Origin: Escherichia phage CSP1C
Reading direction: 5' to 3' (one strand)
Sequence record: PQ202980
Length of the DNA stretch: 55,550 bases
Part shown: piece after piece, positions 7,170 to 53,069 of the stretch
How positions within the stretch are numbered: the stretch's first letter is position 1
Layout: each line of letters begins with the position of its first letter
Notes under the pieces: model-generated
Seen by the model: only the letters and a program-made list of their open reading frames with translations
Told to the model about the DNA's origin: nothing
Database searches by the model: none
Made by a program: the position numbers and the translations under genes

Positions 7170-7576
7170 TGGGATTCGGGGCGGATATACGGCGTGCAAG
7201 TCAAAAGGTGCTTGTCCGGACTGGGGAGCAAGCCAAAAAGGTTGTTGTCAAGTTCACGGAGAATGTAATTCAGGATACTCCTGTTAAGACCGGACGTACA
7301 AAAGGCGGTTGGCGTTCATCCATTGGTGCACCATATGCGACGGAAACTATCCGCCTCGATCCTACTGGGGAATTAGCTAAAGCGGAAGCTAGGGTTATCG
7401 TAAGACAGTTGCCAGATGATAAAGACTGGACTTTCTACTTTAGCAACTTAACCCCGTATGCTCCGAAACTTGAATATCTTGGTTGGTCGCAGCAAGCGCC
7501 AAATGGCATGGTGCGTATTAACGTAGCGAAGCTACCAATGTTGATACGCCAAGCTATTGTAGAAGGAAAACTATAA
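7169..7576 (+). CDS. HK97 gp10-like neck / tail completion protein
   Basis: Motif DTPVKTGRTKGGW resembles the HK97 gp10 family signature; start overlaps upstream stop (TAATG). Confidence 0.5.
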   Translation: MGFGADIRRASQKVLVRTGEQAKKVVVKFTENVIQDTPVKTGRTKGGWRSSIGAPYATETIRLDPTGELAKAEARVIVRQLPDDKDWTFYFSNLTPYAPKLEYLGWSQQAPNGMVRINVAKLPMLIRQAIVEGKL

Positions 7577-8025
7577 TGCTGGGATACGATTTTATCAATG
7601 ACGCATTTAATAAGATGCTACGCGAAGCCGTTGGACCGGATATAGGTATAGCGTGGAAGAACAAGAAGTTTACACCTAAAGCGAATCAGATGTGGTTAAA
7701 GGCAATCAATGCACCTGCATCTACATACGCGGCAACGTTAGGTGACAACGGTCTGAATGAAATTCCAGGATTCTATCAAGTTACAGTGTACAGTCCGTTA
7801 AACACTGGAACGTCTAAACAGAATCAAATCTTGGATTCCATTCGGAAAAAGTTTAAACTGGGCTTGCGTATCCCGTGCCCGGATGACCACACGATACGAA
7901 TTGTCAGCTTAGACTTTTCGCAGGGTGGACAAACTTCGCTGAATGATTTTACCAGAGGCGGGGTTGAAGACAACTGGGACGTTAACTTTATTACAATCTA
8001 TTGGTCGGCTCGTGAGCCGAGGTAA
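7576..8025 (+). CDS. putative tail terminator protein
   Basis: 149 aa ORF immediately upstream of major tail protein; start overlaps previous stop. Confidence 0.4.
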   Translation: MLGYDFINDAFNKMLREAVGPDIGIAWKNKKFTPKANQMWLKAINAPASTYAATLGDNGLNEIPGFYQVTVYSPLNTGTSKQNQILDSIRKKFKLGLRIPCPDDHTIRIVSLDFSQGGQTSLNDFTRGGVEDNWDVNFITIYWSAREPR

Positions 8026-8039
8026 GAGAGGATCTAAAT

Positions 8040-8963
8040 ATGGCTACAGGTTCACGTTATTCGTGTTATTACGTCAAAGAAGATGTGAGCAACACAACTC
8101 CAGCAAGCGCGAAGTTTACCCCGTTTCGTGTAACGAGTTCCGGTCTGGATATTAACATTGCGACGCTGGAGTCTGAAGAACTGCGTGATGACGCAGAAAC
8201 CGCAGACTTCCGTCTTGGCGCTCGAAGCGTTGAAGGTACGGTAACAGGCGAAATGTCCTTCGGTACGTTTGACGACCTCATTGCGGCAGCACTGCGCGGT
8301 GAATGGCAGGACAACGTCCTTAAAGGTGGTATTGTTCGCCAGTCATTTACTTTTGTAGACTATAACGCAGATCTGCCATCAGGTAAATACACAATCTATC
8401 GCGGTTGTGAAGTTAACAGCATGACTTTCTCATTGTCTGCTGAAAACATGACCACAGTAGAGTTCGGCATTGTTGGTCGCTCGATGGAAATTGCTGAATC
8501 ACTTCCTGCTGGTGCTTCCATCAAAGCTCGTACAACTTCTTCACCGATGGACGGCTTCTCCGGTCGCTTGCTGGAAGGCGGTCAGGAAATTAGCGTTATT
8601 ACGGAAATCGGTCTTACCGTTGAAAACGATATCTCTCCGCGCTTCGTTGTTGGCTCGAAGTTCTCCATTGAACCGTCTGCTGGTCGCCGTGCTGTAACTG
8701 GTACAGCTAACGTTTACTTCCTGGATAACAAACTGCGTAAGAAGTATCTGGATGAAGTGGAAACTTCAATCAAGTTTGATCTGATTGACCCAAGCAATCC
8801 GCAACAAAAATACACTGTGGAAATCCCTCGCGTGAAATTCACAGAGGCTCCGCGTCCTATTGACGGTGAAGGCGATATCATGCTTAATATGGGCTACCGC
8901 GGATTGCTGGACCCAACAACCGCAAGTTCCATCAAAATTACCCGCGTTTTAGCGGCAGCATAA
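8040..8963 (+). CDS. major tail (tube) protein
   Basis: 307 aa ORF directly upstream of chaperone and tape measure genes. Confidence 0.6.
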   Translation: MATGSRYSCYYVKEDVSNTTPASAKFTPFRVTSSGLDINIATLESEELRDDAETADFRLGARSVEGTVTGEMSFGTFDDLIAAALRGEWQDNVLKGGIVRQSFTFVDYNADLPSGKYTIYRGCEVNSMTFSLSAENMTTVEFGIVGRSMEIAESLPAGASIKARTTSSPMDGFSGRLLEGGQEISVITEIGLTVENDISPRFVVGSKFSIEPSAGRRAVTGTANVYFLDNKLRKKYLDEVETSIKFDLIDPSNPQQKYTVEIPRVKFTEAPRPIDGEGDIMLNMGYRGLLDPTTASSIKITRVLAAA

Positions 8964-8972
8964 GGATAAGAA

Positions 8973-9380
8973 ATGACCGACACCAAAAAAGCCAAAGTTG
9001 CAGTAGCTAAAAGCTTCCGTGATTTTAAAACTGTGAGCCGGGCAAATGATCCGGCAAACACTAAGCCTATGAATGTGGTTATTCCTGGTGTAGGCGACAC
9101 TGGCGAAAAACTCTACATTCGTAGCCGTTACTGCACAGAGTATCGTGACGCAGAATTGAAAGCACAACGTCAACTGTTGGCACTTATGCAGGGTAAAGAC
9201 GGGGAAGTAACGGATGCTATGAAGGAAGACATCCTTACCCGTTCACTGTGTAATCTTGTAGCAGGTTGGACGTTTGACGAGCCTCCAACCGTTGACAACG
9301 TGTTTGAGTTCTTAACGGAGAACCCAACTGTCCGAGAAGACCTTAACGTATTTGCCGCTAAAGATAGTAATTTTTTCTAA
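8973..9380 (+). CDS. tail assembly chaperone (G-like)
   Basis: 135 aa ORF between major tail and tape measure; ends ...AAT TTT TTC TAA with slippery heptamer T_TTT_TTC. Confidence 0.6.
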   Translation: MTDTKKAKVAVAKSFRDFKTVSRANDPANTKPMNVVIPGVGDTGEKLYIRSRYCTEYRDAELKAQRQLLALMQGKDGEVTDAMKEDILTRSLCNLVAGWTFDEPPTVDNVFEFLTENPTVREDLNVFAAKDSNFF

Positions 9381-9778
9381 AAGCGCGCAGACAGTTAATT
9401 GATAAGAAGATCCTCCAATGGGAACTAAATAGTAAAGTCCCCGGCGGGGGATCTTCTTTATTATCGCAACTGCAAAAGGTTGAGGAACAGTCTGGTAAGA
9501 CGCCACCTAAGCTTAAAGAATATCGGGAAAAGGAAATACCGATTTGCTTCGAATATCTATCTACTTTATTTGATGATATCTACACTGGAGGAGATTTTAG
9601 TTATACAGAATTGCACAGCTATCAAGTGACAATGGGCTTACATCTTCAACCGTACGAATGCGAAATACTGCGGCAGCTATGGCTTGAAAAGCGCGTGTCA
9701 GAAGCTGAACAAAATGCTAAACTCATGGAAAGTCAAATGCAAAATCAAAATAAAGGTAGAAGAAAAAGGAGAAGATAA
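9371..9778 (+). CDS. tail assembly chaperone -1 frameshift extension (GT-like C-terminal part, no own start codon)
   Basis: Open -1 frame of about 135 codons with no ATG, starting at the slippery site and ending at TAA overlapping the tape-measure ATG (TAATG). Confidence 0.55.
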   Translation, partial: FFLKARRQLIDKKILQWELNSKVPGGGSSLLSQLQKVEEQSGKTPPKLKEYREKEIPICFEYLSTLFDDIYTGGDFSYTELHSYQVTMGLHLQPYECEILRQLWLEKRVSEAEQNAKLMESQMQNQNKGRRKRRR

Positions 9779-12700
9779 TGGCCGAAACCGCTTCGCTAGT
9801 AATCAGAGTTGACGCGAGAGGGATTAGTACCGCGGACTCTATGTTGCGGAACTTAGCGCGTACAGGTGACACAGCGGAGCGGTCTGCTCAACGTGTTACC
9901 TCCAGCTATAAAACATTGTCTAACACATCTAACGAACTTGCAACTGTCACAAGTCGTTTAGATGCTGCAATTGTAGGAATGATTAGCGTCGACACCATTA
10001 ACCGTGTTATTTCGCTATCGGACTCCTGGACCATCCTTACCAACAAACTTGAACTAGCTCGTATGGGTAATGAAACCGTTGCGGATTCCCAGCAACGCGT
10101 GTTTGATATTGCCCAGCGTTCGCGTACAAGCTTAGAAGCGACTGCAACTCTGTACTCCCGTCTCCAGCGTGCGATGAAGAATACTGGTATGACTGGTATG
10201 GAGCTTGGACGTATCACGGAAACAATCAACAAAGCAATGATCGTTTCTGGTGCAACATCCCATGAAGCAAGTGCTGCCCTTATTCAGTTTTCGCAAGCAA
10301 TGGCATCCGGTGTTCTGCGTGGGGATGAATTCCGTTCTGTTGCAGAACAAGCCCCGCGCTTAACTCAAATTATGTCCGATTCGTTAGGCGTTACCATTGG
10401 ACAATTGCGTGAACTGGCCTACAGCGGCAAGTTAACCGCAGATGTGGTTATCAAATCGTTGTCTGGTGCCGCGGATACAATTGATAAAGAATTCAGCCGC
10501 ACTATGCCAACGTTCAACCAGCAATGGACGGTTGCAACAAACAACTTGACTAAGTTTATGGGTGAATCCCAAAAGACTCAAGGTGCTGTTGCTGCATTGG
10601 GACAGACGTTTGTTGCTTTATCCGAAAACTTAGGAACGGTTGTAACGGTTGGTTCAGCTTTAGCCACAGTGATTACCGCCCGTATCATCACGGCAATGTT
10701 GGCCAAGACTAAAGCGTCTATAGCTGCTGCAAAAGCATCTCAGATGGAAGCTGCACAAACTGCGGCAACTACGGCGGTGATGCAAAGCTCTATTGGCGTT
10801 ACCGCACAGAAAGCGGCGGCGGATCGTGCTGCTTCGCTTGCATCTTTGCAGGTTGCACGCGGTGCGTTAGCGGTTGCTAAGGGTACGGCAGCGGAAGCAG
10901 GTGCTCGTCTTGCTCTTATTAATGCTACCCGTGCGCATTCCGCAGCAATTATGGCGGACGTACAAGCGCGGCAAGCACTCAATGCTGCGCTTAACGCAAC
11001 CGTACCAGCGGCAAGCCGGGCAGCTACAGCAATGAGCGTGCTGCGCGGGGCTATGGGGTTAATTGGTGGTCCTGTTGGTGTAGCAATGCTGGCAGCGGGT
11101 GCAATTTACTCCTATAAAGCGTCGCTGGAAGCTGGTCGTGCGGAAAACAATCAGTTTGCAGATAGTGTTGATAGTGTACGCGAAAAACTGATGCAAATGA
11201 CGGAAGCTCAGCTGGCAGCTAACGCTGTCAAAGCTAGAGCAATCCTTCCGGAACTTGAAGAGCAAATGAAGCGCGAGCAAACCGCTCTTAAATCTGCAAC
11301 GGAAACGCAGAAGTTCTATGAAGCACAATTGAAGCGTCGAGCTGCATCCGGTCGAGATACTGCTAGTGCGGAAAAGAACTTACAGATTGCTACGGATAAC
11401 GTCAAGCTAGCTGCTGAACGCGCGGAAGACGCACAACGTCGATATAACAATGTGCTTGAAATGACAAGCCCCGCTATCGAGAAGATAATCCCGTTAGCTC
11501 GTCAGCTTGCTGCTGATATGAAGGCTGTTCTTAACATCAAATCCGGTCCGCTTATTGACGAGAAAGTTCTTGATCGTTTTAAAACTCAGCTAGGTGACGT
11601 TAACCGTGAGATTGACGTTAACACTGTTAAGGGTGCTGGTAATGCTCGTCAATCTGCAATCCTTAGAGGTCTGTATCAAACACTAGGTAAAGATGCAGAC
11701 ACCTACGGAAGTCTGATTCGCAAAGTAGCTATGGGTCAGGACGTTAGCTCAGAGGCAACAAGCGAGTCCGCTAAAGAGCTTGTTAAATATGCTCAAGATT
11801 TAGCCCAAGCTCTTGGCAAAAACTACGATCTTGAAGAAGCAGAGAGAAACCGGACTAAAGCTACAAAAGACGCTATTAAGGCAGATCAACAAAACGCTAA
11901 GGTTATTGACGATTTACGAAACAAGCTTAACGAAGTAACCACAGGGGTTAAGGAAAACGCCAAAGCGAAAGCGCAAGCGGTAGCACTTAATAAGCTCAAT
12001 ACGTCTGCAACCGCCGTGGAAAAAGCGGAAGTTGTTAGACTTGCTGCTGCAATCTACGATGCAGAAGAAGCTCAAAAGAAACTGGACGAGCGTAAGAAGA
12101 ATCGTAAGTTTGCTCAGGGTCTGTTAGATGAAGGTATGACAGACTATGAAAAAATCGCGTACGAGCAAAATACAAAGATTGCAGAGCTTAATGCAAAACA
12201 GCGAGCTGATGATTTAGCTTACTATCAGCTTTACGAAGATGCTAAAACCCAAGTCCTGAAGAAAGCAAGCATGGAAAGGGAAAATCTGGATAAAGTTCTT
12301 ATGAACCGAATGATATCCTTTTCTCAGGAATCCTTAGGCATTATAATGGATGGACTGTCACAGGCTGTAAGCCAGCAGAACTTCTTTTATAAAGCTATGT
12401 TTGCAGCACAGAAAGCAATGCAAATCCCGTCAATCCTTGCCAACACGGAAACGGCAGCATCCGCGGCGCTTGCATGGGGTACACAGCAAGGCGGTGCTAC
12501 AATGGGCGCAACTATGGCGGCTATAGTGAAAACTATGGGTTATGCGTCAGCCGCTACTGTGGGTGGCTTAGCAATTGCTGGTATGGCTCACGACGGTATT
12601 GATAACGTTCCGCGTGAAGGTACATGGTTGCTGGATAAGGGTGAACGTGTACTTAATGCTCCGTCCAATGACAAGTTAAATCGCTTCCTGGATAGCCAAG

Positions 12701-12894
12701 CTTCACAACAAGGTGGCGTGAATATGTCCGGTGGTGTTAGCATTGTTCAGTATATCACGGTGCAAGGAAATGGCGATGCAGCACTCACACAAGCCATGCA
12801 AAAAGCAGCCCGTGATGGCGCTGAGCAGGGATATAATAAAGTTCTTAATGACTTTGCATCCCGAGGAACAATTCGTAGAACTGCAATGGGGTAA
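9778..12894 (+). CDS. tail tape measure protein
   Basis: 1038 aa, Ala/Gln-rich helical protein, SD AAGGAG, classical position. Confidence 0.85.
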   Translation: MAETASLVIRVDARGISTADSMLRNLARTGDTAERSAQRVTSSYKTLSNTSNELATVTSRLDAAIVGMISVDTINRVISLSDSWTILTNKLELARMGNETVADSQQRVFDIAQRSRTSLEATATLYSRLQRAMKNTGMTGMELGRITETINKAMIVSGATSHEASAALIQFSQAMASGVLRGDEFRSVAEQAPRLTQIMSDSLGVTIGQLRELAYSGKLTADVVIKSLSGAADTIDKEFSRTMPTFNQQWTVATNNLTKFMGESQKTQGAVAALGQTFVALSENLGTVVTVGSALATVITARIITAMLAKTKASIAAAKASQMEAAQTAATTAVMQSSIGVTAQKAAADRAASLASLQVARGALAVAKGTAAEAGARLALINATRAHSAAIMADVQARQALNAALNATVPAASRAATAMSVLRGAMGLIGGPVGVAMLAAGAIYSYKASLEAGRAENNQFADSVDSVREKLMQMTEAQLAANAVKARAILPELEEQMKREQTALKSATETQKFYEAQLKRRAASGRDTASAEKNLQIATDNVKLAAERAEDAQRRYNNVLEMTSPAIEKIIPLARQLAADMKAVLNIKSGPLIDEKVLDRFKTQLGDVNREIDVNTVKGAGNARQSAILRGLYQTLGKDADTYGSLIRKVAMGQDVSSEATSESAKELVKYAQDLAQALGKNYDLEEAERNRTKATKDAIKADQQNAKVIDDLRNKLNEVTTGVKENAKAKAQAVALNKLNTSATAVEKAEVVRLAAAIYDAEEAQKKLDERKKNRKFAQGLLDEGMTDYEKIAYEQNTKIAELNAKQRADDLAYYQLYEDAKTQVLKKASMERENLDKVLMNRMISFSQESLGIIMDGLSQAVSQQNFFYKAMFAAQKAMQIPSILANTETAASAALAWGTQQGGATMGATMAAIVKTMGYASAATVGGLAIAGMAHDGIDNVPREGTWLLDKGERVLNAPSNDKLNRFLDSQASQQGGVNMSGGVSIVQYITVQGNGDAALTQAMQKAARDGAEQGYNKVLNDFASRGTIRRTAMG

Positions 12895-14475: not shown

Positions 14476-17400
14476 TGCCACCAGCAATAATTGGAGCAGC
14501 GATAGCTTTAGGTGCGTCGGCTGCTGCTGCGGCTAGTATTATTTCGGCTACTACCGCTCTCGTTATCGGTATTGCTGCAACTGCGGCAGGTGCTCTTTTA
14601 ACTAAGACACCAAATATGAACTTTGATGCTTACAAGGGGCAGCAAGAGCGTAAACAGGTTCTGCGTGCGGCTACAGCGTCACGCTCTGTTGTATATGGCA
14701 CGACCGTAGCGTCCGGACTATTAGCATTTGCGGAGGAAGAAGCTGGAGATCAAGATGAAGGTGAATGGATGCATCTTGTTGTTGTTCTTGCTAGTCATAA
14801 ATTGGAAGGTATTGAAACAATTTGGTTGGGTGATGACGGAATTGATTGGTTTGGTGAAAACGCTACTTGGGAGTTTCATAACGACCGTCAGACTGTTGAC
14901 CCATTCATGTTAAGACATTGTCCTTCCTGGAAGAATGATATGATTGGCAAGGGTATTGCATGGCTACGTTTAAGCTTAAAGTTTGATGCTGAAAAATTCC
15001 CATCTGGTTTGCCAAACGTCAAGGTGTTGAAAAAGGGACGTAGAGTCTATGACCCACGTTCCGGTCAAACTGTCTTTAGCGATAACGCTGCTCTTGTTAT
15101 TCTTGATTATTTCCGCACGTATTTGAAGCGCAAAGACGAGAATATTAACTGGGACCAATTCAAGGAAGCTGCTAACATCTGCGATGAGTTTGTTACTAAC
15201 GCAGATAACACTACGGAAAGACGCTACCGCATTAACGGTGAGTTTGAAGTGGATGAAGCACCTGCCAAAATCCTTGATGCTATGCTTGAAGCTTGCGGCG
15301 GGGAGCTTACCTATATTGGTGGTAAACACGGTCTGTTAGTTGGTGCTTATTACGGTCCAGCTACCATGACTCTGGATGAAAGCTGCATTGCTGGGGACAT
15401 TAAGATTATCCCTGAGACATCTTATAAAGAGCGCACCAATACCATTACAGGCACATTTGTTGACCCGAAGCAAACATACGCTGAAGCAGATTTCCCTCCA
15501 GTTGTGGTTAAGGAATGGGTGGAAAAAGATGGCGGCGAAATAACGCAAGACATGGATTTCCGCTTTGTTACAAGTGAATATCAAGCTCAACGTCTTGCTA
15601 ATATTATTTTACGTCGTAAGCGTGTTGGTCGAACAATTGAAGTGCCGTGTAACATGAAGGGGTATAAATTCCGCCCGGGCATGTATGTCAACGTGACAAT
15701 TTCAAATATTGGAATGAAAAATGTTGAGATGCGCGTCACTAAATGGTCATTCGATCCTAAAGGTGGGATTAATCTTGTCCTTCGTCAAGACTTCCTGGAA
15801 ATGTGGGACGACGCTATTGGTAAACCAATGGAGCGCCCGGATCTGGTAGACCTTCCGTCTGGTGCTATTGCTCAACCGCAAAACCTTCAGTATCAGGCAT
15901 TGCAGATTAGCGATGTTGTGCAGGGTGTTTTAACGTGGAGCAATATTGGACAGGTAGCGTATAACCGCGTAGCCGTGCGACAGGGAGGTACAACGGTTTG
16001 GACCGCACAAGTCCCTGGCCAAAATGTTCGCGTTACTGGGTTGCTGCGTGGCGCGTATACAGCGCATGTTCAAGCGGTAGCTTATAGCGGAGCAATATCG
16101 CCGGAAGCATATCTGGAATTCAATATTCAAGCACCACCTCCGCCAACTTCTATTGAAGTGCAACAGGGTTACTTTGCAATAACATTGATACCTAAATCCG
16201 CAGATATTGCAAACGTTAGCACGCAATATGATTTCTGGACGTCCGGTGAAACAAGATTGTCTTCCGTATCTACGGATATTGTGGAACGAGAAGCAACTCG
16301 TAAAGGTATGGGTACAACATGGACTTCAGAAGGCTTGAAGAATGACCACACTTATTACTGGTATGTTCGCACTATCAACGCTTTTGGATCGTCTGCATTT
16401 GTAGAAGTAGCTGCATTGTGCTTCACAACCGCTACAGACCTAATGCCACAGATTGATTCTGAGTTCAAGAAGACGGAGACTTATAAAGAGCTTACTGCTG
16501 AAATTACAGGTGTTAAAGACGGTGTTACCCAACTCAGCCAAACTGTAGTAGATACAGAAAAGCGTTTAAGTCAAAGTGTTAGCAACGTTCAGCAGAGTGT
16601 TATTACTTTGGACGGAGTTGTTCAGGATCAGGGTGTTACCATCAATGAGCAAGGGCAACTTATTGATGCACAGGGCCGATTGATTGATACGCAAGGTAAA
16701 ACTATTCAGCAAGTTAGCGCGACTGTACAGGAGACAAGTAAAGCAGTCGTAGATCTGGAAGGTAATGTTAACGCTCAATGGGGTGCTAAAGTACAGGTTG
16801 ACAGTAAAGGGCAAAAATACGTTGCTGGTATCCAGTTGGGTATGGAAGGTTCAGGCGGTGCTGTACAATCTTACTTCATGGTGAGCGCTAACAACTTTGC
16901 TATCTATAACCCGACAAACAGCGTAGCAGAACTGGCATTTGCTGTTAAGAACGGTCAAGTGTTCATGAAGGCTGCGTTTATTGAAAATGGTACTATTGAC
17001 AGCGCTAAAATTTCAAACCAAATTCAGTCAACCAACTACGCTAACAATAGCGCGGGTTGGATGATCAACAAGAACGGTAGCGCTCAGTTTAACAACGTGA
17101 CCATACGGGGTACGGTATACGCTAACAACGGATCTTTTACAGGAACAGTGAACGCAACAAGCGGTAAATTCACTGGTACTGTGGAAGCTACCAGTTTTGT
17201 GGGGGACGTTGCGAATATGTACACAGGATCTGACGTTAGCAGGTTAAAAGATGGCGTACTGGAAAAAACAATTACATACAACGATACATCTAACGCAGCG
17301 TACAGACGACACATCTGCGTTATGGCAAACGTTAAAGGTTTTGGTGGCTGCACAATAGCTATCGGAAGTTCAGAAAAATCCCTTTCTATGAGAGGCGACG

Positions 17401-29115: not shown

Positions 29116-29919
29116 TTACAAGCCGTTCAGGGCTTCCGGTACTGGTACAGGTACGCGACCAGTCACACCATTAAATTTCTTCCAGCGTGCATACTGGGTT
29201 TTAACGGTATCTTCGTTCAAACCATGGCGACCAGCCAGGTTCAGAACATAAGAGATCGGAGCAGGCTGACCCAGCGTAGCGCTAATCTGGTCCATCAGAG
29301 CCCAGGCACGACCGCAGGAAGTTTCCGGTTGTGGACGACGAACACCGTTCTGTTCCGGCATACGATTAGCTTCTTTTTCTTTCTCGCGGAGCTCTTTAGC
29401 GCGTGCTTTTTCCGCTTCTTTTTCTGCCTGTTTTGCAGCACGGATCTTGTCTTTGAAGCCTTTAATAGTAGCTTCCAGACCATCCACCAGACCCTGGGCA
29501 GAAGTTACAGCACCGGACAGGTCTTCACCTTTAGACTTCTTAACGACAGCTTTCAGCTCTTTCAGAGCTTCTTTAATGGTCTTCAGGTTTGCAGATCCCT
29601 GAGTTTCTGCTTCCGTGATTTGTTCAACAGTGCTTTCGTCGGTGACGGTAGCTAAAGAGTTTTTCAGGATTTCAGCAGCGTTAGCAATCGCATTAAATTT
29701 GTTTTCCGCTTCAGTGCGGATTTCAGCTTGTTTCTTTTCAGCGGCAGCTTTTTTCTCTGCTTCTTTTTTCTCTTTTGCTACGCGTGCAGCTTCAGCGGCA
29801 GCGGCTTTCTTAGCTTCTGTATCATTCACAGTAGCTTCTTTCTTTGCAGGTTTAGCAGATTTTGCAGCGGCAGCAGCGGCAGCAGCGGCAGCGGCTTTTT
29901 TATCTTCAATGTTGCTCAT
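29116..29919 (-). CDS. Ala/Lys-rich low-complexity protein with conserved C-terminal domain (histone-like / DNA-binding candidate)
   Basis: ATG 29919 (track start 29928 is GTG); polyAla run plus KKAAAEK repeats; C-terminal TVKTQYARWKKFNG domain shared with ORF 45820..46434. Confidence 0.5.
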   Translation of the reverse strand: MSNIEDKKAAAAAAAAAAAKSAKPAKKEATVNDTEAKKAAAAEAARVAKEKKEAEKKAAAEKKQAEIRTEAENKFNAIANAAEILKNSLATVTDESTVEQITEAETQGSANLKTIKEALKELKAVVKKSKGEDLSGAVTSAQGLVDGLEATIKGFKDKIRAAKQAEKEAEKARAKELREKEKEANRMPEQNGVRRPQPETSCGRAWALMDQISATLGQPAPISYVLNLAGRHGLNEDTVKTQYARWKKFNGVTGRVPVPVPEALNGL

Positions 29920-33527: not shown

Positions 33528-33552
33528 AGGGACACTACAGAGGGAGGTTAAC

Positions 33553-34422
33553 TTACTGCTGCCACGGCGGGACTGCTGCTTGTGCCGGATGCGGTTCAGC
33601 TTGCTGCTGTGGCTGCGCTTGCTGCTGCGGTGCTGCTGCCTGACCCGGCTGTGCTACCTGCTGCGCCCATGGCTGCTGAGCTGCTTCCGGCGCTACTGGC
33701 TGTTGTACCGGAGCTTGCTGAACTGGCTGCTGCGGCGCTGCGTTTTGAGCAGGATTATCCCACGGCTGCGGTGCGGCATTCTGCCACGGTTGAGCTGCTG
33801 CGCCCTGCTGCGGTGCTGGTTGCTGAACAGGCTGCTGTTGCTGTACCGGAGCTTGCTGCTGTACAGGTGCTTGCTGTTGCTGAGCAAACGGGTTAGCTGC
33901 TGGCTGCTGCGGCGCTGCGCCCGGGAAAGTTGGCTGCTGTGCTGGCGCACCTGCACCGAACGGGTTAGCTACTGCTGGAGCGCCCATTGATGGAGCCTCT
34001 GCTGCTTTTTCTGCATACTTAACCGGATCGTTGATGTTAGCGTAACCGTTCGGCTCGTTGCTGTCTTCATAACCTTCCTGAGAACGAACTTTCAGACGCA
34101 GGTTCAGCGGAATGTTATGCAGTTGAGCAGGAGTATCCCAGCGAATTACACCTACTGCGTGGGAAAGTGCGCCCAGTTGCTCATAAGCGATACGCACAGT
34201 ATCTTCATTGTCGTTGATGACGTTGTAGCGAGCGAAGATTTTACGACCTTTAGCAAAACCGTCAATGATGCTAAACGTTACCTGGATCGCCATACCGCCA
34301 TTTTTGGTCGGTTTAAATTCAGATGCTTCAATTACTGCTTTATACCAACCTTTCGGCAATGCGCCGTAAGAAGGTGCTTGATAGCTGCTCGCGTCAAAGT
34401 GGAAATTAGTTGGCATAGTCAT
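33553..34422 (-). CDS. SSB-like (DUF669-type) protein with Q/P/A-rich C-terminal tail
   Basis: Globular N-terminal ~150 aa, then ~140 aa low-complexity tail with repeated PW motifs; adjacent and coupled to Sak4-like ATPase. Confidence 0.5.
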   Translation of the reverse strand: MTMPTNFHFDASSYQAPSYGALPKGWYKAVIEASEFKPTKNGGMAIQVTFSIIDGFAKGRKIFARYNVINDNEDTVRIAYEQLGALSHAVGVIRWDTPAQLHNIPLNLRLKVRSQEGYEDSNEPNGYANINDPVKYAEKAAEAPSMGAPAVANPFGAGAPAQQPTFPGAAPQQPAANPFAQQQQAPVQQQAPVQQQQPVQQPAPQQGAAAQPWQNAAPQPWDNPAQNAAPQQPVQQAPVQQPVAPEAAQQPWAQQVAQPGQAAAPQQQAQPQQQAEPHPAQAAVPPWQQ

Positions 34423-44441: not shown

Positions 44442-45105
44442 AGTTTTTGTAATCGCAAAACCTTCGCAAAACTTTGTCTTTCCTGCATTATATTAAACGA
44501 TAGTGCTAGTGGCCAGCATAGTGGCATCACCTCTTATAGTGCGCCGTTACTGGCTTCGCTATAGTGTGCCACTATACGCTCACTATACACTAATAACTAA
44601 TTTTATTTTGTTTAGTGGTAATAAAGTTTTGGGTTTTTGGGGGGGACCCCTATATATCCCGGGAAAAACAAAGAAATAGTAGTAGTAGTGAAAAACATAG
44701 TGAAATGCCACTATCCTCACTATCACTACCAATTTAATGTAATTCATGGGGGTGTCTATGTACCAAAAACCTAAAACTTTCAGTCAACAGGCTAAAAACG
44801 GATAGAAACTAAAAGTTAATAAGTAATAACATAAATATATATAAAATAAGGATTTATTAGTAATGTATATAGTACCTATTGATATTATTTGAATGTTTTT
44901 GGGTCATTGTTAAAAAGTCCCAAAACTCGCAAAACCTGAACGGATGCAGATCAAAAATGAGAAATCAAGTGCTTTTGAGGGAAATTTATTGAACTATTGT
45001 GATCGGAAGGTATATCAAGCTATAATGCGCTTAATCGCGGGATATTGGAGGAGGACTTTATTGCGCGGTTAACCGGACCAGTAGGAGGGCTGGCCCGGAA
45101 GTAGT
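44442..45105. promoter_or_regulatory. AT-rich repeat-dense non-coding region (candidate operator cluster / origin)
   Basis: About 660 bp without credible ORF; at least 6 CACTATA/TATAGTG heptamers, 3 copies of TCGCAAAAC, (AGT)4, a G7 run and a TATAAT-like box. Confidence 0.5.
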
Positions 45106-47138: not shown

Positions 47139-47350
47139 GATGCAACCCTTAATGTGGTTAAGCAGTATTGCTTTGTTGAAGTAATAATAGCCTTGCATCG
47201 TGATATTGAATAGGCCAAAAGTGCTATTTTGATATTGTTTTGCATCTAGTGAAAATTATGCTTGCCCTGCATGTTTAGCACAAACGGCCTAATTAACATC
47301 ACATCATCTGGAGTATTCGCGCGGGCGCACACATGCTTATAAGGTGGTGC

Positions 47351-47466
47351 CGGATCGACCAGGTGGGAGCGGTGCACAGGATCGACCAGGGGCATCCGGC
47401 GCCCTGCGTGCGCGGAGCCTACCAGGTGGAAGCAGCTCCTGCGTGTGCCGGAAATACCAGGGGCGC
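47351..47466. repeat. GC-rich degenerate direct repeats containing ACCAGG(T)GG (4 copies)
   Basis: ACCAGG cores at 47358, 47385, 47421 and 47456, each in a related 15-20 nt context, inside an otherwise AT-rich intergenic region. Confidence 0.55.
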
Positions 47467-52608: not shown

Positions 52609-53069
52609 CCACAATTGCGTTTGATGGAAAAGTATTAGCTGCGGACCGTGGAGTTATGCGCGGGGAAGTTGTGACTGCATATAAGAAAGTTCACAGCGTA
52701 AATGGGCATCGTGGACGGTTTTTACTGGGTCTGTGCGGCCTTACAGCATTCACCGATCAAGTGCTGCGTTATTTTAATAGCGCTGAACCTGTTAAGTTCC
52801 CAGATATTAAAGTTTACAGCAAAGATGATGATTACGGGCAAACTTGCGGTCTTGCGGTTACTCCGGAAGGTACTTGCCATTTTATTTACAATGATGGTAC
52901 GTTGAGCGAGCCTATGCTGGACGGCTGGGGGTCGGATGGTAGCGGTTGTGTGTTTGCTGCGGGAGCTCTGGCTGCTGGTGCAAGCGCACGCGAAGCTATC
53001 GAGCTAGCAATCAAGCATACCACATGTGCATTTCTTGGCGTTGATACAATATCGTTTGAGGGTTTTTAA
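52605..53069 (+). CDS. Ntn-hydrolase, proteasome beta / HslV-like peptidase
   Basis: N-terminus MTTIAFDGKVLAADRG (Thr directly after Met) and later GSDGSG motif fit the proteasome/HslV fold. Confidence 0.5.
   Translation: MTTIAFDGKVLAADRGVMRGEVVTAYKKVHSVNGHRGRFLLGLCGLTAFTDQVLRYFNSAEPVKFPDIKVYSKDDDYGQTCGLAVTPEGTCHFIYNDGTLSEPMLDGWGSDGSGCVFAAGALAAGASAREAIELAIKHTTCAFLGVDTISFEGF

What the first reader, a model, noticed from the sequence alone, without database searches (positions are those of the whole stretch)
9360..9778. Programmed -1 ribosomal frameshift in the tail assembly chaperone
The chaperone ORF ends AAT TTT TTC TAA, giving a canonical slippery heptamer T_TTT_TTC right before the stop. 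The -1 frame is open for ~135 codons with no start codon and ends in TAATG at the tape-measure start, the conserved G/GT arrangement.
Basis: partly seen in the sequence, partly recalled or inferred. Interest (0 to 1): 0.45.

Follow-up and report, generated by a model that had tools for sequence, protein, structure and literature searches.

The report
Tail chaperone G/GT -1 frameshift site
This is the usual programmed -1 ribosomal frameshift that lets a tailed phage make a short and a long tail-assembly chaperone from one gene; it is real and well conserved, and it is already annotated in a near-identical phage, so it is ordinary.

Summary
The window is Cronobacter phage CSP1, a Seuratvirus. 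The 135-codon chaperone ORF (8973-9380) ends AAT TTT TTC TAA. The in-phase heptamer T_TTT_TTC lies at 9371-9377. The -1 frame is closed by TAG TAA just before the heptamer and then stays open for 133 codons to a TAATG overlap with the tape-measure gene (9778), so the heptamer is the only place the two frames can be joined. Among close relatives, the frame in which substitutions are synonymous switches from 0 to -1 at the heptamer. All 12 GenBank lineages examined in detail and all 55 IMG/VR metagenomic loci where both parts were found carry T in the -1 frame, mostly with TTTTTTC. One clade has A_AAA_AAG two codons downstream instead. PHROG 569 spans both halves, and Pfam Phage_TAC_18 matches T. 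The GenBank record of phage Seurat (95.5% identical) already annotates this join as ribosomal slippage; CSP1's own record leaves the region blank. One addition: a stable hairpin (9400-9463) with suppressed synonymous variation starts 22 nt after the heptamer, too far for a canonical stimulator, and its role is unresolved.

The parts
8040..8963 (+). Major tail (tube) protein gene, directly upstream of the chaperone gene
   Evidence: Pfam PF18906 Phage_tube_2, E 2e-43; PHROG 290
8962..8966 (+). Shine-Dalgarno-like AAGGA, 6 nt before the G start codon
   Evidence: Read from the sequence; function inferred
8973..9380 (+). G: tail assembly (tape-measure) chaperone, the 135-aa product of normal decoding
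   Evidence: ORF list and translation. PHROG 569 E 3e-26 on profile positions 11-126 of 256; PHROG 313 'tail assembly chaperone' E 3e-11. 31 of 35 variable sites are synonymous in this frame.
9365..9370 (+). TAG TAA in the -1 frame, which closes that frame immediately 5' of the heptamer
   Evidence: the -1 frame opens at 9371
9371..9377 (+). Slippery heptamer T_TTT_TTC, in phase with G (codons TTT 9372-9374 and TTC 9375-9377)
   Evidence: The same in-phase heptamer occurs in 39 of 55 IMG/VR loci and in 11 of 12 GenBank lineages. U_UU.U_UU.C is a shift-prone motif in E. coli (PMC4066793).
9378..9380 (+). 0-frame stop TAA of G, abutting the heptamer; a possible 'shifty stop' contribution
   Evidence: A stop directly after the heptamer is also found in Nonagvirus and in the Klebsiella-phage lineages, but not in PSTCR4 or the Pseudomonas-type lineages. 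Any stimulatory role is inferred.
9377..9778 (+). T: the -1 frame extension (133 codons plus TAA), reached only by frameshifting. GT = 8973..9377 joined to 9377..9778, 268 aa.
   Evidence: PHROG 569 E 7e-47 on profile positions 130-256; Pfam PF23812 Phage_TAC_18 at 37.7 bits against a cut-off of 27. 12 of 14 variable sites in 9381-9610 are synonymous in this frame. tblastn finds T in 85 phage records.
9400..9463 (+). Long hairpin inside the T coding sequence: a 17-bp outer stem with one bulge (core GAUCCUCC/GGGGGAUC) plus an inner stem. It starts 22 nt after the heptamer.
   Evidence: MFE -29 kcal/mol, z -3.6 to -4.3. Rank 36 of 11096 among 70-nt windows of the window. Substitutions in relatives with 71-81% identical G fall in the apical loop and at the stem base. 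Synonymous variation is suppressed in T codons 1-29 (10 of 28 against 71 of 100, p = 0.0015). Function not established.
9767..9771 (+). Shine-Dalgarno AGGAG for the tape-measure gene, inside the end of T
   Evidence: Read from the sequence; annotated as an RBS in the Seurat record
9778..12894 (+). Tape measure protein gene; its ATG overlaps the T stop (TAATG)
   Evidence: PHROG 339 E 2e-179; Pfam TMP_3 E 5e-59

Best explanation
Genes G and T of this Seuratvirus (Cronobacter phage CSP1) encode the two forms of the tail assembly, or tape-measure, chaperone. Most ribosomes translate G (8973-9380) and terminate at TAA 9378, giving a 135-aa protein. A minority slip back one nucleotide on U_UUU_UUC (9371-9377). 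The two Phe-tRNAs can re-pair from UUU-UUC to UUU-UUU, or the P-site tRNA can slip alone while the adjacent stop codon waits in the A site. These ribosomes then read CUA AAA GCG... in the -1 frame for 133 further codons, giving a 268-aa GT fusion (...DSNFF-LKARRQ...) that ends at the TAATG overlap with the tape-measure gene. By analogy with lambda gpG/gpGT, the G part binds the tape-measure protein, the T part recruits the tail tube protein, and the frameshift frequency fixes a high G:GT ratio. Shown here: the sequence anatomy, the frame switch of purifying selection, conservation of the arrangement, and family membership. Inferred: that ribosomes rather than RNA polymerase do the slipping, the efficiency, the protein function, and any role of the adjacent stop codon or of the hairpin at 9400-9463 in setting the rate.
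For: Anatomy: the two frames overlap only at the heptamer. Selection: in 11 close Seuratviruses, 31 of 35 variable sites in G are synonymous in frame 0. In 9381-9610, which has no start codon, 12 of 14 are synonymous in frame -1 and only 2 of 14 in frame 0. T has no stop codon in any of 13 genomes, against 4-9 stops in frame 0 and 15-17 in frame +1. Conservation: T is in the -1 frame in all 12 divergent GenBank lineages (Seuratvirus, Nonagvirus, Vidquintavirus, Craquatrovirus, Amoyvirus, Abidjanvirus and others) and in 55 of 55 IMG/VR loci that could be scored. 51 of those 55 have an in-phase X_XXY_YYZ heptamer in the overlap. One clade lost TTTTTTC and has A_AAA_AAG two codons further on, so it is shiftiness that is selected rather than the Phe-Phe sequence. 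Fused sequences align without gaps across the junction, with F134 invariant. Homology: the 256-position PHROG 569 profile is covered by G (11-126) plus T (130-256), and Pfam Phage_TAC_18 matches T above its cut-off. Context: the pair lies between the tail tube and tape-measure genes. Prior annotation: phage Seurat KM236243 carries a joined CDS 'tape measure chaperone, ribosomal slippage (10236)', which corresponds to window 9374. Literature: U_UU.U_UU.C is among the shift-prone heptamers in E. coli (PMC4066793), and the lambda G/GT paradigm is described in PMC5009743.
Against: No protein or RNA data exist for this phage or its close relatives in the sources searched. There is no stimulatory structure at the canonical 5-9 nt spacing: the only strong hairpin begins at +23. 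RNAalifold finds no column-wise consensus structure across lineages. A run of six T could in principle also support RNA polymerase slippage, which would give the same protein. The match of G alone to Pfam TAC families is below the cut-off (PF08748, 14.3 against 21.1 bits). The AlphaFold model of G was too poor (pLDDT 53) to test the fold.
Confidence: 0.9

Rival explanations
1. Transcriptional slippage. RNA polymerase adds one extra U while copying the T6 run (9371-9376). A fraction of mRNAs then carries U7 and encodes GT in a single frame, and the ribosome decodes normally.
For: All slip sites in the family are homopolymer-rich (T6-T7, A6). The product (…NFFLK…) would be identical to that of ribosomal slippage. 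Such slippage is known in bacteria and in IS elements (PMC5009743).
Against: From established knowledge (Baranov et al. 2005, cited in PMC4066793), efficient bacterial slippage needs runs of about 8-9 or more, and this run has 6. The run is always in the X_XXY_YYZ phase, including the independently placed A_AAA_AAG sites, which polymerase slippage does not require. Four loci have only AAT_TTT_A, a run of four T. TTTTTTC sites are accompanied by downstream RNA structure and suppressed synonymous change, as expected for ribosomal stimulators.
Confidence: 0.06
2. T is a separate gene translated on its own, by internal initiation or by re-initiation after termination at TAA 9378, and no fusion protein is made.
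For: Several GenBank records annotate stand-alone ORFs inside T, for example ATG 9632-9778 and homologues in yong3, Vid5 and EC151. In-frame TTG, GTG and ATG exist from 9611 on.
Against: There is no ATG, GTG or TTG in the first 78 codons and no Shine-Dalgarno sequence there. That start-less part is nevertheless under purifying selection in the -1 frame. It is conserved as protein right from the junction in distant phages and holds most of the Pfam and PHROG match (residues 6-133 and 35-104). The -1 relation to G and the slippery site are conserved everywhere, which an independent gene would not need.
Confidence: 0.03
3. Artefact or decay: a single chaperone gene broken by a sequencing error or by a recent frameshift mutation in a T run.
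For: Homopolymer runs are prone to indel errors.
Against: The same frame break is present in 35 independently sequenced close relatives and in every distant lineage examined. Stops bracket the heptamer in both frames.
Confidence: 0.01

Closest known systems
Phage lambda gpG/gpGT tail assembly chaperones (-1 PRF at G_GGA_AAG), and the conserved frameshift in tail assembly genes of dsDNA phages (Levin et al. 1993; Xu, Hendrix & Duda 2004; reviewed in PMC5009743)
   Same: Position between the major tail and tape-measure genes. A short ORF plus a start-less -1 extension of similar size. An in-phase slippery heptamer near the end of G. T ends at the start of the tape-measure gene.
   Different: The heptamer is different (T_TTT_TTC). 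The 0-frame stop abuts the heptamer, so the overlap is only 7 nt. No sequence similarity to lambda G/T was detected; the family matches are PHROG 569/313 and Pfam Phage_TAC_18.
Escherichia phage Seurat CPT_Seurat13/14 'tape measure chaperone' (KM236243.1, joined CDS with ribosomal slippage)
   Same: The region is 95.5% identical, with an identical heptamer, stop codon and downstream 100 nt. T is 99% identical.
   Different: None of substance. CSP1's own record (KY982929) simply does not annotate the join.
Phage P2 E/E+E' tail chaperone frameshift on a T-rich heptamer (recalled from memory: Christie et al. 2002; not checked here)
   Same: A -1 shift on a run of T near the end of the chaperone ORF.
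   Different: P2 is a myovirus with a different protein family. The comparison rests on memory only.
E. coli dnaX and IS3/IS911-type -1 PRF cassettes (heptamer, 5-9 nt spacer, then hairpin or pseudoknot, sometimes with an upstream Shine-Dalgarno sequence)
   Same: A slippery heptamer of the X_XXY_YYZ type, and a stable downstream hairpin with suppressed synonymous variation.
   Different: The hairpin starts 22 nt after the heptamer instead of 5-9 nt. There is no Shine-Dalgarno-like element upstream. A stop codon directly follows the heptamer.

Membership tests
G/GT-type phage tail assembly chaperone with programmed -1 frameshift | The gene pair lies between the major tail (tube) gene and the tape-measure gene | tested here: met
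   Phage_tube_2 at 8040-8963, G/T at 8973-9778, TMP_3 at 9778-12894
G/GT-type phage tail assembly chaperone with programmed -1 frameshift | The second ORF is in the -1 frame, overlaps the end of the first, and has no initiation signal of its own | tested here: met
   The -1 frame is open 9371-9778. The first in-frame start codon is TTG 9611, and no Shine-Dalgarno sequence is present.
G/GT-type phage tail assembly chaperone with programmed -1 frameshift | An in-phase slippery heptamer X_XXY_YYZ lies inside the overlap | tested here: met
   T_TTT_TTC at 9371-9377; the overlap consists of exactly this heptamer
G/GT-type phage tail assembly chaperone with programmed -1 frameshift | The arrangement is conserved in related phages, and both parts are under purifying selection in their own frames | tested here: met
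   55 of 55 IMG/VR loci and 12 of 12 GenBank lineages have T in the -1 frame. Synonymous to non-synonymous counts are 31:4 for G in frame 0 and 12:2 for the start-less part of T in frame -1.
G/GT-type phage tail assembly chaperone with programmed -1 frameshift | Sequence membership in curated tail-assembly-chaperone families | tested here: met
   T matches Pfam PF23812 Phage_TAC_18 at 37.7 bits (cut-off 27). G and T together cover PHROG 569. G matches PHROG 313 'tail assembly chaperone' at 3e-11. G against Pfam PF08748 scores only 14.3 bits, below the 21.1 cut-off.
G/GT-type phage tail assembly chaperone with programmed -1 frameshift | Chaperone fold of G | tested here: inconclusive
   The AlphaFold2 model built from a 9-sequence alignment has mean pLDDT 53.4 and was not searched. 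There is no meaningful PDB sequence hit.
G/GT-type phage tail assembly chaperone with programmed -1 frameshift | The fusion protein is made at a low fixed ratio, is needed for tail assembly, and is absent from virions | not testable with these tools
   Needs proteomics and genetics. No such data for Seuratviruses were found in the library.
Canonical -1 PRF cassette (heptamer + short spacer + 3' structure) | A stable stem-loop or pseudoknot begins 5-9 nt 3' of the heptamer | tested here: not met
   The first stable helix starts at +23 (9400). The 22-nt spacer is predicted to be unpaired, and candidate closing helices (GCG/CGC, CAGUU/AACUG) are not conserved. Pseudomonas-type relatives do have hairpins at +6 to +8.
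Programmed transcriptional slippage | A long homopolymer run (about 8-9 or more A or T in bacteria; from established knowledge), with no dependence on reading phase | tested here: not met
   The run is T6 here. Its phase is conserved, including at the replaced A_AAA_AAG sites.
Rfam RNA families | A match to a curated covariance model at its gathering score | tested here: not met
   Only sub-threshold matches to generic long hairpins (miRNA precursors) in 9250-9600

The most novel reading that the evidence does not exclude
The conserved hairpin that starts 22 nt (23-36 nt in sister lineages) after a U_UUU_UUC heptamer with an abutting stop codon could be a functional long-spacer modulator of the frameshift, or a pause site that acts on ribosomes already shifted. 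That would be a PRF cassette geometry different from the canonical 5-9 nt spacing, shared by the enterobacterial relatives examined (Seuratvirus, Nonagvirus, the EC151-like and Klebsiella-phage lineages, Vid5).
Probability: 0.25. Interest if true: 0.4.

Novelty: already known. Interest (0 to 1): 0.15.

Why it matters
The practical value is for annotation. CSP1's GenBank record, like many Seuratvirus and Nonagvirus records, leaves the T region blank or calls spurious fragments. The correct gene model is join(8973..9377, 9377..9778). The biology (a G:GT ratio set by recoding) is textbook. The one point that could repay an experiment is the hairpin with suppressed synonymous change at a non-canonical distance from the slip site. 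Set beside sister clades that carry hairpins at the canonical distance, or A_AAA_AAG with no structure, it offers a natural series for asking how the strength of the slippery site, an adjacent stop codon and the position of the structure trade off.

Tried and rejected
- **Consensus structure:** RNAalifold on the codon-register alignment of 16 lineages predicted no pairs. Each lineage's hairpin uses a different register (i+j = 135, 137, 140 or about 155), so no column-wise covariation statistic could be given. Only a few true double compensatory changes were seen, for example 48-87 A-U to G-C and 45-90 C-G to U-A between Nonagvirus and the Klebsiella-phage group.
- **Helices that would bring the structure closer to the heptamer:** GCG 9385-9387 with CGC 9465-9467, and CAGUU 9392-9396 with AACUG 9468-9472, are broken in STP-SP5, yong3 and L092. 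They were rejected.
- **Intrinsic terminator:** the scan flags GTCCCCGGCGGGGGAT followed by a T-rich tail. The sister lineages keep a hairpin without any U tract, so a terminator is unlikely to be the conserved function.
- **Rfam:** nothing reached a gathering score.
- **PDB sequence search with the GT profile:** only a meaningless hit to a designed protein.
- **Structure prediction:** G with 9 sequences gave pLDDT 53, so no fold search was run.
- **Other TTTTTTC copies:** the two at 29749 and 29764 with long open frames lie antisense to a 270-aa minus-strand ORF and are irrelevant.
- **Literature:** no paper on CSP1 was found, and the Seuratvirus papers found do not discuss the frameshift.

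Full report
**Identity of the window.** Bases 8000-10500 are 100% identical to Cronobacter phage CSP1 (KY982929.1, reverse strand). They are 92-98.5% identical to about 30 Escherichia phages of the genus Seuratvirus (Queuovirinae), including Seurat and CAjan.

**Check of the observation.** The ORF 8973..9380 (135 aa) ends AGT AAT TTT TTC TAA.
- The heptamer T_TTT_TTC occupies 9371-9377 and is in the X_XXY_YYZ phase.
- The -1 frame reads TAG TAA at 9365-9370, so it opens exactly at the heptamer.
- It then runs without a stop to the TAA at 9776-9778, whose last A is the first base of the ATG of the 1038-aa tape-measure ORF (TAATG).
- The two frames therefore overlap only across the heptamer and the G stop codon, which pins the recoding site to these seven bases.

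TTG 9611, GTG 9626 and ATG 9632 follow.

TTTTTTC on its own is not unusual: there are 12 copies in the window against 19 +/- 3.8 expected. No other copy combines an in-phase position at the end of a long ORF with a long open -1 frame. The two apparent exceptions, at 29749 and 29764, are antisense to a minus-strand gene.

**What the genes are.**
- The upstream neighbour (8040-8963) is a tail tube protein (Pfam Phage_tube_2, E 2e-43).
- Before it lies a tail terminator (7576-8025; Pfam Phage_tail_terminator_5, PHROG 179).
- The downstream neighbour is the tape-measure protein (Pfam TMP_3, PHROG 339).
- G matches PHROG 569 (E 3e-26, profile positions 11-126 of 256) and PHROG 313 'tail assembly chaperone'.
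- The -1 extension matches the rest of the same PHROG 569 profile (positions 130-256, E 7e-47), so that family is built from fused proteins. It also matches Pfam PF23812 Phage_TAC_18 above its gathering score.

**Selection.** In 11 close Seuratviruses, 30 of 35 variable sites in G fall on the third codon position of frame 0. In T, 20 of 27 fall on the third position of frame -1.

| Region | Variable sites | Synonymous in frame 0 | Synonymous in frame -1 |
|---|---|---|---|
| G (8976-9370) | 35 | 31 | 3 |
| T, start-less part (9381-9610) | 14 | 2 | 12 |

T has no stop codon in any of 13 genomes. The other two frames carry 4-9 stops (frame 0) and 15-17 stops (frame +1). So a stretch that has no initiation codon is translated in the -1 frame.

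**Conservation.** tblastn with T finds 85 phage records at down to about 27% identity. I examined 12 lineages in detail: Seuratvirus, STP-SP5, yong3, Vid5, EC151, Nonagvirus, PSTCR4, a Klebsiella phage, Amoyvirus, Abidjanvirus, ZQG1 and Baskent_P4_1.
- In every one T is in the -1 frame relative to G, with TTTTTTC (TTTTTTA in EC151) in phase inside the overlap.
- The conceptual fusions align end to end without a gap at the junction, with F134 invariant and F135 nearly so.

A scan of IMG/VR with that alignment gave 68 loci. Both parts could be located in 55 of them, and T was in the -1 frame in all 55. Of these, 39 have TTTTTTC, 8 have AAAAAAG, 4 have TTTTTTA/TTTAAAG, and 4 have no canonical heptamer.
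- The AAAAAAG sites lie two codons 3' of the old Phe-Phe position (…FFSKK|V…). That is an independent replacement of the slip site, which argues that the shift itself is what selection maintains.
- The four exceptions have AAT_TTT_ATC, a U_UUU tetramer, in a 22-25 nt overlap.

**Prior knowledge.** That position corresponds to window 9374, inside the T run, and the genome announcement lists the chaperone (PMC4342423). CSP1's own record leaves 9381-9777 unannotated. Other records call fragments instead.

The lambda G/GT paradigm and its conservation are reviewed in PMC5009743. U_UU.U_UU.C is listed among the shift-prone heptamers in E. coli, and U_UU.C is second only to A_AA.G among tetramers (PMC4066793).

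**Search for a stimulator.**
- *Upstream:* no Shine-Dalgarno-like element precedes the heptamer.
- *Stop codon:* the 0-frame stop directly follows the heptamer here and in Nonagvirus and the Klebsiella-phage lineages, but lies 40-94 nt away in others. A 'shifty stop' contribution is therefore possible but is not universal.
- *Hairpin:* the 93 nt after the heptamer fold into a long hairpin at 9400-9463. It has a 17-bp outer stem with one bulge and an inner stem, at -29 kcal/mol with z -3.6 (z -4.3). It ranks 36th of 11096 70-nt windows in the whole window, and about a dozen other places fold as well or better.
- *Nucleotide conservation:* in five further metagenomic relatives whose G proteins are only 71-81% identical, the stem arms are invariant at the nucleotide level. 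Substitutions pile up in the apical loop and at the stem base. The single arm change (A to G at 9451 in L099) keeps a U-G pair.
- *Synonymous variation:* across 18 sequences it is seen at 10 of 28 degenerate codons in T codons 1-29. The figures are 71 of 100 in the rest of T (Fisher p = 0.0015) and 103 of 130 in G (p = 1e-5).
- *Sister lineages:* Nonagvirus, the Klebsiella phages, the EC151-like phages, L021 and Vid5 each have a strong hairpin of their own whose 5' arm sits at about the same place (+29 to +36). The pairing registers differ, so RNAalifold finds no consensus.
- *Local background:* measured against neighbouring coding sequence in the same locus, these regions fall in the top 1.5-32% of blocks.
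- *Other clades:* Pseudomonas-type relatives have hairpins at the canonical +6 to +8. The AAAAAAG clade shows no structure, with z about -1.
- *Rfam:* there is no matching family.

I conclude that an RNA element overlaps the start of T and is probably selected. Because it begins 22 nt after the heptamer, it would not touch a ribosome sitting on the slip site, so its role as a frameshift stimulator is unproven. Candidate closing helices that would shorten the spacer are not conserved. The terminator-like inner hairpin has no U tract in the sister lineages.

**Rival explanations.**
- *Transcriptional slippage on T6* would give the same protein and cannot be excluded by computation. The run is short, the phase is conserved even at the replaced sites, and four loci have only four T.
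- *Independent translation of T* is contradicted by the selected, conserved, start-less first 78 codons.
- *Sequencing error or pseudogene* is excluded by the universal conservation of the frame break.

**Verdict.** The feature is the standard tail-chaperone -1 frameshift and is already annotated in a 95.5%-identical phage. It is of low interest, apart from a correction to the annotation of CSP1 and the unexplained hairpin at a non-canonical distance.

Noticed in passing
window 9381-9777: CSP1's own GenBank record (KY982929) has no feature here. Other Seuratvirus records call fragments instead of the join: ATG 9632-9778 as 'putative tape measure chaperone', and a 0-frame TTG ORF at 9480-9629 as 'hypothetical protein'.
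   Followed up: yes
L023-L026, L029, L034, L051, L060 (IMG/VR loci): A clade of the same chaperone family has replaced T_TTT_TTC by A_AAA_AAG two codons further 3'. It shows no unusual downstream RNA structure.
   Followed up: partly
L066 1438-1462, L073, L074, L081: These four loci have a 22-25 nt overlap with no X_XXY_YYZ heptamer. The only slippery candidate is AAT_TTT_ATC, a U_UUU tetramer.
   Followed up: partly
L012 1154-1210, L014 1145-1165, L015 1151-1190: Pseudomonas-type relatives carry a G+C-rich hairpin starting 6-8 nt after TTTTTTC, the canonical spacing. The enterobacterial lineages have theirs at +23 to +36.
   Followed up: partly
window 52911-53015, 33546-33650, 10771-10900, 47336-47460, 45031-45100, 16026-16095: These 70-nt windows fold as well as or better than the hairpin at 9400-9463 (-29 to -33 kcal/mol). 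Their nature was not examined.
   Followed up: no
whole window: TTTTTTC is under-represented: 12 copies on both strands against 19 +/- 3.8 in dinucleotide-preserving shuffles.
   Followed up: no
window 8000-10500 against GenBank: Phages named for Cronobacter (CSP1) and Aeromonas (SD04) are 96-100% identical in this region to E. coli Seuratviruses. Either the host range is broad or the host labels need a check.
   Followed up: no
L011 1589-2697 (phage HdK1): The tape-measure gene is annotated as two overlapping CDS in the HdK1 record. This may be a frameshift error or an indel in that genome.
   Followed up: no
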